A DNA stretch of 64,000 nt from Escherichia coli. GTDB taxonomy: Bacteria > Pseudomonadota > Gammaproteobacteria > Enterobacterales > Enterobacteriaceae. The position numbers are program-made. The stretch lies in the NCBI RefSeq assembly GCF_048403405.1, contig NZ_CP183129.1. One strand, written 5' to 3'. The number at the start of each line of letters is the position of its first letter. Positions within the stretch are counted from its first letter, which is position 1. This document shows positions 57,001-63,000 of this stretch, in pieces.

Positions 57001-60000
57001 AGCAGGCACAGAAAATCGTCATTGATGACGCTGCTTATGTGTACCTGTTCCAGAAAAACTACCAACTGGCGATGAACAAAGAGGTGAAAGGTTTTGTGTT
57101 CAATCCCATGCTGGAACAGGTCTTCAATATCAATACCATGAGTAAATAACGTGACCTTCTGGAGTATTTTACGCCAACGCTGCTGGGGGCTGGTGCTCGT
57201 GGTGGCGGGCGTCTGTGTGATAACGTTTATTATCTCGCACCTGATCCCCGGCGATCCGGCGCGGTTACTGGCGGGTGACCGCGCCAGCGATGCTATCGTG
57301 GATAATATTCGCCAGCAACTGGGACTGGACCAGCCACTGTATGTACAGTTTTACCGCTACGTCAGCGACCTGTTTCAGGGTGACCTGGGAACATCCATTC
57401 GTACCGGGCGTCCGGTGCTGGAAGAGTTGCGCATATTTTTCCCGGCGACGCTGGAACTGGCTTTTTGTGCCCTGCTGCTGGCACTCCTGATTGGCATCCC
57501 GCTGGGCATACTCTCTGCAGTCTGGCGAAATCGCTGGCTGGATCATCTGGTGCGAATAATGGCCATTACCGGAATCTCCACACCTGCGTTCTGGCTTGGG
57601 CTGGGCGTCATTGTGCTGTTTTATGGTCATCTGCAAATTCTTCCCGGCGGCGGAAGGCTTGATGACTGGCTGGATCCACCAACGCACGTTACCGGCTTTT
57701 ATCTGCTCGATGCGCTGCTTGAAGGCAACGGTGAAGTCTTCTTCAATGCGCTGCAACATCTCATCTTACCGGCATTAACGCTGGCGTTCGTTCACCTGGG
57801 GATTGTCGCTCGCCAGATCCGCTCAGCTATGCTGGAACAATTGAGTGAAGACTACATTCGTACCGCCCGGGCCAGCGGCTTGCCCGGCTGGTATATCGTT
57901 TTATGTTATGCGCTACCCAATGCGTTGATCCCCTCGATTACCGTATTGGGGCTGGCGCTGGGCGATTTGTTGTATGGCGCAGTGCTCACCGAAACCGTTT
58001 TTGCCTGGCCCGGAATGGGTGCATGGGTAGTAACATCAATACAGGCGCTCGACTTCCCGGCAGTGATGGGCTTTGCCGTCGTGGTTTCGTTTGCTTATGT
58101 GCTGGTGAACCTGGTGGTGGATTTGCTCTATTTGTGGATTGATCCGCGTATCGGACGTGGAGGTGGTGAATGATGCTAAGCGAGGAAACGTCAGCCGTGC
58201 GCCCACCAAAACAAACGCGATTTAACGGTGCAAAACTGGTATGGATGCTGAAAGGCAGCCCGCTTACCGTGACCGGCGCAGTCATCATTGTATTAATGCT
58301 ACTGATGATGATTTTTTCACCGTGGCTGGCGACGCATGATCCCAACGCCATTGATTTAACCGCCCGCCTTTTGCCGCCTTCTGCGGCGCACTGGTTTGGT
58401 ACCGATGAAGTGGGACGCGATCTGTTTAGCCGCGTACTGGTCGGCAGTCAGCAATCAATTCTCGCCGGATTAGTGGTGGTCGCCATTGCAGGTATGATGG
58501 GGTCGCTACTCGGGTGTCTATCCGGTGTGCTTGGCGGACGCGCAGACGCGATCATCATGCGCATCATGGACATTATGCTGTCGATTCCTTCGCTGGTGCT
58601 GACAATGGCACTGGCTGCCGCACTTGGACCGAGTTTGTTTAACGCCATGCTGGCGATTGCTATCGTGCGAATCCCGTTTTATGTGCGCCTGGCGCGGGGG
58701 CAAACATTAGTTGTCCGCCAGTACACTTACGTTCAGGCGGCGAAAACCTTTGGTGCGTCACGCTGGCATCTGATCAATTGGCATATTTTACGTAACTCCC
58801 TGCCGCCGCTGATTGTGCAGGCATCGCTGGATATCGGTAGCGCGATTTTAATGGCCGCCACGTTGGGATTTATTGGCCTGGGTGCTCAACAACCGAGTGC
58901 TGAATGGGGGGCGATGGTGGCGAATGGTCGCAACTATGTGCTCGATCAATGGTGGTATTGCGCATTTCCGGGGGCAGCGATTTTGCTTACCGCCGTCGGG
59001 TTCAATCTCTTTGGTGATGGTATTCGCGATCTGCTTGACCCGAAAGCAGGAGGAAAGCAGTCATGACCCAACCCGTTCTGGACATTCAACAACTGCATTT
59101 GAGTTTCCCCGGTTTTAACGGTGATGTTCACGCGCTCAACAATGTGTCATTGAAAATCAACCGCGGTGAAATTGTCGGTCTGGTGGGAGAATCCGGCTCG
59201 GGTAAATCAGTCACTGCAATGTTGATTATGCGTCTGCTACCGACGGGCAGTTATTGCGTACATCGGGGACATATTTCACTGCTGGGAGAAGATGCTCTTA
59301 ACGCTCGGGAAAAACAGCTTCGTCAGTGGCGCGGCGCACGAGTGGCGATGATCTTTCAGGAACCGATGACCGCCCTTAATCCGACACGTCGAATAGGTCT
59401 TCAGATGATGGACGTGATCCGCCATCATCAACCAAAAAGTCGTCGGGAAGCCAGAGCTAAAGCGATTGCCCTGCTGGAAGAGATGCAAATCCCGGATGCC
59501 GTGGAAGTTATGTCGCGCTATCCGTTTGAGCTTTCAGGTGGTATGCGACAGCGGGTAATGATTGCGCTGGCATTCTCCTGCGAGCCGCAATTGATTATTG
59601 CCGACGAACCGACTACGGCGCTGGACGTCACGGTACAGTTGCAGGTACTGCGTCTGCTTAAACATAAAGCCCGCGCCAGTGGAACTGCGGTACTGTTCAT
59701 CAGCCATGATATGGCCGTGGTGTCGCAACTGTGCGATAGCGTTTACGTGATGTATGCCGGAAGCGTGATTGAGAGCGGCGTGACGGCAGACGTTATCCAT
59801 CATCCCCGGCATCCGTATACCATTGGTTTGCTGCAATGCGCACCGGAACATGGAATACCGCGCCAGCCATTACCCGCTATTCCGGGGACGGTACCAAACC
59901 TCACCCATTTGCCTGACGGCTGCGCTTTTCGCGATCGTTGCTATGCGGCAGGTGCACAGTGTGAAAACGTCCCGGCGCTAACAGCGTATGGTGACAACAA

Positions 60001-63000
60001 CCACCGCTGCGCCTGTTGGTATCCTCAGCAGGAGGTCATTAGTGTCTGACACGTTATTAACGTTACGCGACGTCCATATCAATTTCCCGGCCCGAAAAAA
60101 CTGGCTTGGTAAAACTACGGAACATGTTCATGCCATCAATGGTATTGATTTACAGATCCGTCGTAGTGAAACCTTAGGGATCGTCGGTGAGTCAGGCTGC
60201 GGCAAAAGCACCCTCGCACAGCTTTTAATGGGTATGCTGCAACCGAGCCACGGGCAGTACATCCGTTCAAGATCACAACGCATTATGCAGATGGTGTTTC
60301 AGGACCCGCTCTCTTCGCTCAATCCGCGCTTACCGGTGTGGCGCATCATCACAGAACCGCTCTGGATAGCTAAGCGTAGTAGTGAACAACAGCGGCGAGC
60401 GTTGGCAGAGGAGCTGGCTGTGCAGGTGGGTATTCGTCCGGAATATCTCGACCGCCTGCCTCATGCGTTCTCCGGCGGGCAGCGGCAACGCATCGCCATT
60501 GCCAGAGCACTCTCTTCGCAGCCTGACGTGATTGTGCTTGATGAGCCAACCTCTGCGCTGGATATCTCTGTGCAGGCGCAGATCCTAAATTTACTGGTAA
60601 CGCTACAGGAAAATCGCGAGCTGACTTATGTGCTGATTTCACACAATGTCTCGGTGATACGTCATATGAGCGATCGGGTGGCGGTGATGTATCTCGGACA
60701 GATTGTGGAACTAGGAGACGCGCAACAGGTGCTGACAGCTCCGGCACATCCATACACCCGATTATTGCTGGATTCCCTCCCCGCCATTGATAAACCGCTG
60801 GAGGAAGAATGGGCATTACGTAAAACGGATCTACCAGGAAACCGCACGTTGCCACAAGGCTGTTTTTTCCGCGAACGCTGCCCTCTGGCAACCCACGGAT
60901 GTGAAGTCCGGCAATCATTAGCAATAAGGGAGGACGGACGTGAGATCCGGTGCTGGCGGGCGCTGTAGAGATGCTAACAACGCATCAGGCAATCACGCGC
61001 CTGACGCGTCATACGGCAACGCTTTATGATTTCAACTGGTAATCAAGCGTAATTTCCGCTTTCAGTACCTGGGAAACCGGGCATCCTGCTTTTGCTTTCT
61101 GGATAATGCCGTCAAAGGTGGCGGCATCAATACCCGGCACCGCAACTTCGCTCTTCAGTGCGATTTTAGTAATCGCAAAACCGGCATCCACTTTATCCAG
61201 CGACACATCGGCGGTGGTATCAATCGATGTTGGCGTGAATCCCGCTTCCCCCAGCATTAATGAAAGCGCCATTGAGAAACATGCGGCATGCGCTGCGCCA
61301 ATCAGTTCTTCAGGGTTGGTTCCTTTTTCGCCTTCAAAACGCGTGTTAAATCCATACGGCTGTTGGTTCAGCACGCCGCTCTCGGTGGATACTGTTCCCT
61401 TCCCGCGTTTGATATCGCCTTCCCAGTGTGCCTGACCTTTCTTATGGATTGTCATTGTTGCTCTCCTGTGGGCTTAAAAAGGAAATTATAGACTACGTGA
61501 GAAACCGCACGAGGATAAGCAGGATATTCCGAATAAAATCCGGCGAAAACATTATCTCTGTACTTAAATTAAATTCCCACAATAGATAACGGGGAATATA
61601 TAATCCAAAAGATATTGTATCAATATTAATCGGATCGCCCCAATTACAATCCCTATGAATATCATGGTGTTAAAATATAAAAATTATCAACCAGGACTAA
61701 TCTTAACAACGAAGCGGCAAATATTTGCCATGCTGAATGTGCTTTATAAATCTGCGATCCGTAGCAGACACCAAAAATACACAGACACGGAGAATCGCTA
61801 TGTTTACTTATTATCAGGCAGAAAATTCAACAGCAGAACCCGCTCTGGTTAATGCCATTGAGCAAGGCCTTCGGGCAGAGCACGGTGTTGTCACTGAAGA
61901 TGACATTCTCATGGAGCTGACCAAATGGGTAGAAGCTTCTGATAACGACATCCTCAGTGATATCTACCAGCAAACGATCAATTATGTGGTCAGTGGCCAG
62001 CACCCTACGCTTTAAGGTGCTATGCTTGATCGGCAACCTAATTTAGGGGTTTAGCACGTGTTTCTTCGCTACGGCGATGTTGTCCTTAAAACTAGCAACA
62101 GGATTGAGGAGTTAAAATGAAATCGAACCGTCAGGCACGTCATATTCTTGGACTGGACCATAAAATTTCTAACCAGCGCAAAATAGTTACCGAAGGTGAC
62201 AAATCCAGCGTGGTAAATAACCCAACCGGCAGAAAACGCCCCGCTGAAAAGTAATCTTTAACAATCAGTCCTCAATGACGATTAAACACCATTGCCTGCG
62301 CAATGGTGTTTTTGTTTTTATCTGCTTTATACTTGGGGCCGACGCCCTGGCGGTAAAGCAAAGACGATAAAAGCGTGCCAGGGATGGATATTCAAAAAAG
62401 AGTGAGTGACATGGAACCAAAAACAAAAAAACAGCGTTCGCTTTATATCCCTTACGCTGGCCCTGTACTGCTGGAATTTCCGTTGTTGAATAAAGGCAGT
62501 GCCTTCAGCATGGAAGAACGCCGTAACTTCAACCTGCTGGGGTTACTGCCGGAAGTGGTCGAAACCATCGAAGAACAAGCGGAACGAGCATGGATCCAGT
62601 ATCAGGGATTCAAAACCGAAATCGACAAACACATCTACCTGCGTAACATCCAGGACACCAACGAAACCCTCTTCTACCGTCTGGTAAACAATCATCTTGA
62701 TGAGATGATGCCTGTTATTTATACCCCAACCGTCGGCGCAGCCTGTGAGCGTTTTTCTGAGATCTACCGCCGTTCACGCGGCGTGTTTATCTCTTACCAG
62801 AACCGCCACAATATGGACGATATTCTGCAAAACGTGCCGAACCATAATATTAAAGTGATTGTGGTGACTGACGGTGAACGTATTCTGGGGCTTGGTGACC
62901 AGGGCATCGGCGGGATGGGCATTCCGATCGGTAAACTGTCACTCTATACTGCCTGTGGCGGCATCAGCCCGGCGTATACCCTTCCGGTGGTGCTGGATGT

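What the first reader, a model, noticed from the sequence alone, without database searches (positions are those of the whole stretch)
57149..60049. Serial start/stop overlaps through the ddp operon
ddpA/ddpB are 1 nt apart, ddpB/ddpC and ddpC/ddpD overlap as ATGA, and ddpF starts at a GTG inside the ddpD 3' end. This indicates tight translational coupling across the transporter genes; the lsr permease genes show the same pattern (lsrA/lsrC 7-nt overlap, lsrC/lsrD 1-nt overlap).
Basis: seen in the sequence. Interest (0 to 1): 0.15.

Follow-up and report, generated by a model that had tools for sequence, protein, structure and literature searches.

The report
Abutting genes in ddp transporter operon
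The genes of this E. coli dipeptide-transporter operon do touch or overlap by a few bases as described, but this is the ordinary, already tabulated layout for subunits of bacterial ABC transporters; the one unusual point is that the first junction arose from a recent Escherichia-specific deletion.

Summary
ddpA/ddpB are 1 nt apart (TAAcGTG), ddpB/ddpC and ddpC/ddpD overlap as ATGA, and ddpF starts at a GTG 8 nt inside ddpD (GTGTCTGA). lsrA/lsrC (-7) and lsrC/lsrD (-1) are also as stated. No alternative start has better support. ddpC, ddpD and ddpF have the strongest Shine-Dalgarno (SD) sites in the operon, ddpB's GTG is the most upstream start possible, and published N-terminomics detects the DdpF peptide made from that GTG.

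The pattern is ordinary. These distances are already listed in a published E. coli table. The classes -4, -1 and -8 are the commonest in the genome. The paralogous nik, sap and yej operons look the same.

In 36 orthologous operons from alpha-, beta- and gamma-proteobacteria, the B/C, C/D and D/F junctions stay within -11 to +4 nt in all but one case. This conserved tightness fits termination-reinitiation coupling, which was not measured for ddp.

The A/B junction differs. All 35 non-Escherichia orthologues have a 22-191 nt spacer with an SD and usually a hairpin. Escherichia deleted it, leaving an SD-less GTG that probably depends on coupling.

Verdict: already known, low interest.

The parts
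55004..55585 (+). ddpX, D-Ala-D-Ala dipeptidase, first gene of the operon; 13-nt gap to ddpA
   Evidence: RefSeq annotation; Pfam Peptidase_M15, 1e-78
55599..57149 (+). ddpA, periplasmic substrate-binding protein; stop TAA at 57147-57149
   Evidence: Pfam SBP_bac_5
57147..57153 (+). A/B junction TAAcGTG (+1). No SD upstream of the GTG (-2.2 kcal/mol, mid-range of control triplets). Produced by deletion of the ancestral spacer.
   Evidence: alignment A1; 100% identical over 81 nt in 4047 of the 4233 E. coli genomes that have it
57151..58173 (+). ddpB, permease. GTG 57151 is the most upstream start possible, because an in-frame TGA lies at 57139-57141.
   Evidence: Pfam BPD_transp_1_N aligns protein residue 7 to profile position 5, so the downstream GTGs at 57193, 57199 and 57202 would truncate the conserved N-terminus.
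58159..58175 (+). B/C junction: SD GGAGG 58159-58163 inside the ddpB 3' end, ddpC ATG 58170, second in-frame ATG 58173, ddpB stop TGA 58171-58173 (aATGATG). The overlap is -4 or -1 depending on which ATG is used.
58170..59066 (+). ddpC, permease
   Evidence: NCBIfam NF007376 matches residues 1-298 to profile 1-298, 623 bits
59048..59066 (+). C/D junction: SD AGGAGG 59048-59053, ddpD ATG 59063-59065, ddpC stop TGA 59064-59066 (ATGA, -4)
59063..60049 (+). ddpD, ATPase with oligo_HPY C-terminal domain
60030..60049 (+). D/F junction: SD AGGAGG 60030-60035, ddpF GTG 60042-60044, ddpD stop TGA 60047-60049 (GTGTCTGA, -8)
   Evidence: The N-terminal peptide MSDTLLTLR from this GTG was detected in K-12 (PMC13245402 Tables S1/S2).
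60042..60968 (+). ddpF, second ATPase, last gene of the operon
4333..4339 (-). lsrA/lsrC 7-nt overlap (ATGCTGA); SD AGGAGG upstream of the lsrC ATG
3311..3311 (-). lsrC/lsrD 1-nt overlap (TAATG); SD GGGAGG upstream

Best explanation
This is the E. coli ddpXABCDF operon, a D-Ala-D-Ala dipeptidase gene followed by an Opp/Dpp-family ABC importer, with its correctly annotated gene boundaries. The five transporter cistrons form an unbroken chain at +1, -4, -4 and -8 nt.

Most likely mechanism (inferred, not measured): a ribosome terminating on one cistron sits within 2-7 nt of the next start codon and reinitiates there instead of leaving the mRNA. This is termination-reinitiation.

At ddpC, ddpD and ddpF, strong SD sites embedded in the last codons of the upstream gene help hold the 30S subunit. 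They probably also allow some independent initiation. This part of the layout is ancient and keeps the two permeases and two ATPases of one complex produced together.

At ddpB the situation differs. The Escherichia lineage deleted the whole ancestral ddpA-ddpB spacer, including its SD and, in many genera, a GC-rich hairpin. The new GTG start is built from a spacer G plus the TG of the old ATG. It has no SD and lies in an unstructured A/U-rich context. ddpB translation therefore most likely depends on ribosomes arriving from ddpA.

Shown: the geometry, the starts, the SD strengths, the conservation and the deletion. Inferred: that reinitiation actually occurs, and how efficient it is.
For: - Geometry and starts.
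- SD of ddpC, ddpD and ddpF stronger than all 297 control start-like triplets in the operon; ddpB's falls at the 63rd percentile of those controls.
- Start of ddpF confirmed by N-terminomics.
- DdpB, DdpC and DdpD N-termini align to positions 1-9 of family profiles.
- In 36 orthologues from other species, B/C is within -4..+4 in 36/36, C/D within -4..+2 in 35/36, and D/F within -11..-1 in 35/35. The register flips among -4, -1, +1 and +2, so it is closeness rather than sequence that is kept.
- A/B is +1 only in Escherichia and +22..+191 with ATG and SD in 35 other species. Alignment A1 shows a clean spacer deletion.
- DdpB is the best conserved protein of the operon, 94-95% identical to Citrobacter, so it is under purifying selection.
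- The simple consensus scan found no sigma-70-like promoter inside the operon: 1 site in the scanned region, downstream of ddpF, against 5.9 expected.
- Experiments on other native E. coli pairs show coupling in 4 of 5 -4 pairs, and loss of coupling at gaps of about 20 nt.
- Short distances are enriched 4.5-fold among subunits of heteromeric complexes.
Against: - No measurement of coupling exists for ddp.
- The 90-nt junction windows are not more structured than shuffles (z = +1.16, +0.96, -0.36, -0.98). Nothing visibly blocks de novo initiation at the strong SDs of ddpC, ddpD and ddpF.
- One of the five tested E. coli pairs (bioBF) initiated independently despite an ATGA overlap.
- The highly expressed paralogues dpp and opp use 9-14 nt gaps at B/C and C/D, so overlap is not required for a working transporter of this family.
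- About 21% of complete E. coli genomes lack the operon altogether, so selection on it is not universal.
Confidence: 0.7

Rival explanations
1. The overlaps are just compact packing. Each of ddpC, ddpD and ddpF is initiated independently at its own strong SD, and the short distances are a neutral by-product of stop- and start-codon drift with no role for the upstream ribosome.
For: - Very strong and structurally unoccluded SDs.
- bioBF shows that an ATGA pair can initiate de novo.
- dpp and opp work with 9-14 nt gaps.
Against: - Tight spacing is kept in 106 of 107 orthologous junctions across three proteobacterial classes, while the sequence and register change.
- Genome-wide, such spacing is enriched in complex subunits.
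- This reading cannot explain how SD-less ddpB is translated.
Confidence: 0.2
2. Some boundaries are annotation artefacts: the true starts lie elsewhere, so the overlaps are not real.
For: - The mechanical ORF for ddpF starts at ATG 59988.
- ddpB has in-frame GTGs at 57193, 57199 and 57202 behind a G-rich stretch (-7.8 to -9.1 kcal/mol).
- ddpC has two adjacent ATGs.
Against: - The ddpF GTG start is confirmed by a detected peptide. ATG 59988 has no SD, and the extra 18 residues match no profile.
- The downstream ddpB GTGs would remove conserved N-terminal residues, and ddpB's N-terminal codons (TGACCTTCTGGAG) are conserved across genera.
- Both ddpC ATGs give an overlap, -4 or -1.
- ddpD has a single candidate start.
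Confidence: 0.04
3. The A/B junction is a lesion rather than an adaptation. The spacer deletion crippled ddpB initiation, and the E. coli ddp transporter is weakly made and on its way to being lost.
For: - SD lost and ATG changed to GTG.
- The whole operon is absent from about 1,140 of 5,413 complete E. coli genomes.
- The transporter is still annotated 'putative' in K-12.
Against: - The junction is 100% identical in 4047 of 4233 genomes.
- All ORFs are intact and DdpB is 94-97% conserved.
- A DdpF protein N-terminus was detected in K-12, so ribosomes reach the end of the operon.
Confidence: 0.15

Closest known systems
Paralogous Opp/Dpp-family ABC operons of E. coli K-12 (nikABCDE, sapABCDF, yejABEF)
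   Same: The same five-component architecture with serial junctions at or below +1 nt: nik -1, -4, -1, -4; sap -4, -14, -1, +1; yej 0, -1, +1. dppD/F and oppD/F also overlap by 4 nt.
   Different: dpp, opp and gsi keep gaps of 9-19 nt (gsiC/D only 2 nt) between most cistrons, and 85-307 nt after the binding-protein gene in dpp and opp. ddp has the -8 class at D/F and a GTG start at two junctions.
Native E. coli overlapping pairs shown to be coupled by termination-reinitiation (hyfHI, astDB, ydbH/ynbE, menDH; Huber et al. 2019, 2023)
   Same: ATGA-type overlap with an SD inside the upstream gene. The ddp and lsr pairs appear in the same authors' genome table with the same distances, flagged as complex subunits.
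   Different: Those pairs were tested with premature-stop reporters. The ddp pairs were only tabulated, not tested.
[quoted passage not shown]
   Same: A downstream start without a usable SD, placed next to the upstream stop, as at ddpA/ddpB.
   Different: A phage gene, with experimental proof. For ddpB the dependence is inferred from sequence only.
Orthologous ddp operons of Citrobacter, Enterobacter, Pantoea, Pseudomonas and Rhizobiales
   Same: The same gene order and the same tight B/C, C/D and D/F junctions. D/F is ATGTCTGA in all Enterobacterales.
   Different: They keep a 22-191 nt ddpA-ddpB spacer with an SD, an ATG and usually a GC-rich hairpin. They also start ddpF at ATG, not GTG.

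Membership tests
E. coli ddpXABCDF operon | Sequence identity and gene order ddpX-A-B-C-D-F between dosP and osmC | tested here: met
   100% identity over 7 kb to strain MS 69-1 and the same annotation and distances as K-12 b1483-b1488
Opp/Dpp (PepT) family ABC importer | Family-5 binding protein, two BPD_transp_1 permeases with the N-terminal TM extension, and two ATPases with the oligo_HPY C-terminal domain | tested here: met
   Pfam SBP_bac_5; BPD_transp_1 with BPD_transp_1_N or OppC_N; ABC_tran with oligo_HPY in both ATPases
Termination-reinitiation coupled gene pair (Huber et al.) | Co-directional pair at -8 to about +6 nt | tested here: met
   +1, -4, -4, -8
Termination-reinitiation coupled gene pair (Huber et al.) | Both genes on one transcript | tested here: inconclusive
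   The simple consensus scan found no sigma-70-like promoter inside the operon, and terminator-like sites were not above chance. There is also no room for signals at the junctions. No transcript data were examined.
Termination-reinitiation coupled gene pair (Huber et al.) | SD motif inside the 3' end of the upstream gene (typical, not obligatory) | tested here: met
   Met for ddpC, ddpD and ddpF (-13.8, -10.3, -11.5 kcal/mol). Not met for ddpB (-2.2).
Termination-reinitiation coupled gene pair (Huber et al.) | Downstream translation depends on ribosomes reaching the upstream stop codon | not testable with these tools
   Needs premature-stop reporter constructs or Ribo-seq under ddp-inducing conditions
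RNA-unfolding type coupling (trpBA or atpHA type) | Stable structure sequestering the downstream start region | tested here: not met
   90-nt junction windows fold no better than shuffles (z = +1.16 to -0.98). Only partial local pairing of the SD at C/D and D/F.

The most novel reading that the evidence does not exclude
The ddpA/ddpB junction is a natural experiment in the birth of translational coupling. In the Escherichia lineage one clean deletion removed the ancestral ddpA-ddpB spacer with its SD, which in many genera also carries a stabilising hairpin. The deletion fused a spacer G to the TG of the old ATG. ddpB thereby changed from an independently initiated cistron into an SD-less GTG cistron that can only be translated by ribosomes handed over from ddpA, which would change the ratio of binding protein to permease. 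The deletion itself is shown here. The obligate hand-over and its effect on stoichiometry are not.
Probability: 0.45. Interest if true: 0.3.

Novelty: already known. Interest (0 to 1): 0.1.

Why it matters
It matters little beyond confirming that the annotation is right. Short overlaps between ABC-transporter subunit genes are textbook, and these very distances are in a published table.

The modest added value is comparative:
- The permease and ATPase junctions have stayed within a few nucleotides across three proteobacterial classes.
- The junction between the binding-protein and permease genes in E. coli is a young deletion product without an SD. That makes ddpA/ddpB a convenient native test case for SD-independent reinitiation.

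Tried and rejected
- **Alternative starts.** All in-frame ATG, GTG and TTG codons around each annotated start were scored for SD pairing and checked against family profiles. None beats the annotated start.
- **Structure-based coupling.** Folding of the four junctions gave no z-score below -1, so this was rejected as the main mechanism.
- **Known RNA elements.** An Rfam scan of 54500-61600 at E<=1 found nothing.
- **Hidden genes on the other strand.** The antisense ORFs at 57265-57759, 57986-58351 and 59534-59851, and the + strand ORF at 58873-59118, have no Pfam match. They are treated as spurious.
- **Internal promoters and terminators.** The simple consensus scan found no sigma-70-like site inside the operon, and terminator-like hits were at the chance level.
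- **Ribosome-profiling start-site data.** The Ribo-RET preprint has no supplementary tables held. The N-terminomics paper covered only DdpF.
- **Window coordinates.** My first attempt to place the lsr genes by assuming the window is collinear with strain MS 69-1 failed: the window is 353 nt shorter between lsr and ddp. Coordinates were re-derived from the window's own ORFs.
- **Papers naming ddp genes.** The searches returned nothing on their translation.
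Full report
**Identity of the region**

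The window is E. coli chromosome. Positions 55000-62000 are 100% identical to strain MS 69-1 and 95-99% identical to nearly all other complete E. coli genomes. The annotation there, and in K-12 (b1483-b1488), gives these genes:
- ddpX 55004-55585
- ddpA 55599-57149
- ddpB 57151-58173
- ddpC 58170-59066
- ddpD 59063-60049
- ddpF 60042-60968

dosP lies upstream and osmC lies convergent downstream. All six ORFs translate cleanly. Their domains are those of a VanX-type dipeptidase plus an Opp/Dpp-family ABC importer.

**Check of the observation**

Every statement holds at the stated coordinates.
- A/B: TAA (57147-49), C, then GTG (57151-53).
- B/C: aATGA at 58170-73.
- C/D: cATGA at 59063-66.
- D/F: GTGTCTGA at 60042-49.

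The lsr junctions are also as described. In this window they sit at 4333-4339 (ATGCTGA, -7) and 3311 (TAATG, -1) on the minus strand.

I scored every in-frame ATG, GTG and TTG near each start for pairing with the 16S rRNA tail.
- ddpC, ddpD and ddpF have SD duplexes of -13.8, -10.3 and -11.5 kcal/mol. These are stronger than all 297 other start-like triplets inside the operon.
- ddpB's GTG has essentially none (-2.2, 63rd percentile of controls). It is nevertheless the most upstream start the frame allows, because a TGA lies at 57139-41.
- The downstream GTGs of ddpB (57193, 57199, 57202) would remove residues that align to positions 5-14 of the permease N-terminal profiles. The first codons of ddpB are also conserved across genera.
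- For ddpF, the longer ORF from ATG 59988 has no SD, and its extra 18 residues match nothing.
- A 2026 N-terminomics study detected the peptide MSDTLLTLR initiated at the annotated GTG in K-12, plus a minor product from an ACG six codons downstream (PMC13245402).
- ddpC has two adjacent ATGs (58170 and 58173). Either gives an overlap, -4 or -1.

The boundaries therefore stand.

**Is this unusual?**

No.
- Huber et al. 2023 report that 707 of 2,987 unidirectional E. coli pairs (24%) lie at -8..+6, with -4 commonest, followed by -1 and -8. Short distances are 4.5-fold enriched among subunits of heteromeric complexes.
- Their supplementary table already lists ddpX/A +13, A/B +1, B/C -4, C/D -4, D/F -8, lsrA/C -7 and lsrC/D -1, with every junction between transporter subunit genes flagged as complex subunits.
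- Among the seven Opp/Dpp-family operons of K-12, nik (-1, -4, -1, -4), sap (-4, -14, -1, +1) and yej (0, -1, +1) show the same serial pattern.
- dpp and opp overlap only at D/F and use 9-14 nt gaps at B/C and C/D.

**Comparative evidence**

A scan of one genome per species with DdpC returned 80 loci. Thirty-six are orthologous operons with at least 59% DdpC identity. They come from Enterobacterales, Pseudomonas, beta-proteobacteria and Rhizobiales, most with ddpX upstream.

I took each upstream stop codon and chose the downstream start by homology, SD strength and codon type.
- B/C lies within -4..+4 in 36/36.
- C/D lies within -4..+2 in 35/36.
- D/F lies within -11..-1 in 35/35.

The raw junction strings show the adjacent ATGs directly. 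The register changes between lineages: ATGA, TGATG, TGAgATG, TGAtcATG. The C-terminal residues that carry the SD also change, yet closeness and a purine-rich SD persist. This is the signature of selection on proximity, not inherited sequence.

**The A/B junction is different**

Only the window and one divergent Escherichia genome (L010) have +1. All 35 other species have a 22-191 nt spacer with an ATG and an SD. Outside Enterobacter and Lelliottia the spacer also carries a GC-rich stem-loop, of about -20 kcal/mol or stronger in most.

The alignment shows ddpA's ...ATGAGTAAATAA and ddpB's TGACCTTCTGGAG conserved on both sides, with the spacer cleanly missing in Escherichia. The new GTG is made of a spacer G plus the TG of the old ATG. 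Because every outgroup keeps the spacer, the deletion is the derived state.

The deletion is effectively fixed where the operon exists: the 81-nt junction is 100% identical in 4047 of 4233 genomes. DdpB is the best conserved protein of the operon, so it is evidently still made.

**Mechanism**

None of the 90-nt junction windows folds better than shuffled controls (z = +1.16, +0.96, -0.36, -0.98). No Rfam element is present. Coupling by unmasking of a sequestered start is therefore not supported.

The best reading is proximity-based termination-reinitiation. It is helped by SDs at C, D and F, where some independent initiation is also likely. At ddpB it is close to obligatory, because that start lacks an SD, uses GTG, and sits in an unstructured A/U-rich context.

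This is inference from geometry and from experiments on other E. coli pairs: 4 of 5 were coupled, and coupling was lost at gaps of about 20 nt. It has not been measured for ddp.

**Other checks**

The simple consensus scan found no sigma-70-like promoter inside the operon, and terminator-like hits were at chance level. A hairpin followed by a T-run lies just after dosP. Antisense ORFs in the interval have no family match.

**Verdict**

- The phenomenon is already known and already tabulated for these genes.
- The only mildly new point is the Escherichia-specific origin of the SD-less ddpA/ddpB junction.

Noticed in passing
window 54750-61020 (whole ddpXABCDF block): About 1,140 of 5,413 complete E. 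coli genomes (21%) lack the entire ddp operon, with dosP directly followed by osmC (for example strain BH100, L090). The operon is therefore accessory within the species.
   Followed up: partly
L011:3935-3981, L017, L022, L025-L028 and others (ddpA-ddpB spacer of other genera): Most non-Escherichia orthologues carry a GC-rich stem-loop (about -20 to -118 kcal/mol) between ddpA and ddpB. This may be a 3'-end stabiliser or attenuator that sets an excess of binding protein. Enterobacter and Lelliottia have a 22-23 nt spacer without it, and Escherichia has none.
   Followed up: partly
window 60030-60062: ddpF starts with ATG in all 35 orthologues, including a divergent Escherichia (L010). E. coli proper, including K-12, has GTG. 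Compared with the non-Escherichia Enterobacterales it also has a stronger SD (AGGAGG instead of CTGGAG or ACAGGAG); L010 already has AGGAGG. Published N-terminomics also reports a minor initiation at ACG 60060-60062, six codons downstream.
   Followed up: partly
window 58167-58175: The sequence TGA-ATG-ATG: an in-frame TGA sits immediately before two tandem ATGs of ddpC. The true start could be either one (-4 or -1 overlap). The tandem aATGATG is conserved in most Enterobacterales.
   Followed up: partly
window 1-55000 compared with NZ_CP146675.1: The window is not from MS 69-1 itself. It is 353 nt shorter than that strain somewhere between lsrF and ddpX, and it differs by one base at 55417 (in ddpX).
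   Followed up: no
L002:14549-16137 (hipBA; about 353 nt further along in window coordinates): hipB and hipA also share one nucleotide (-1). This is another pair of interacting proteins with an abutting junction in the same window.
   Followed up: no
L002:19704-20380: Three short, mutually overlapping CDS annotated as hypothetical or amidohydrolase-family (overlaps of 41 and 11 nt). They look like fragments of one disrupted gene rather than functional overlaps.
   Followed up: no
window 54759-54784: A terminator-like hairpin GCCCGCACTCGCGGGT followed by a T-run lies right after dosP. This suggests that ddpX has its own promoter in the 257-nt dosP-ddpX spacer.
   Followed up: no
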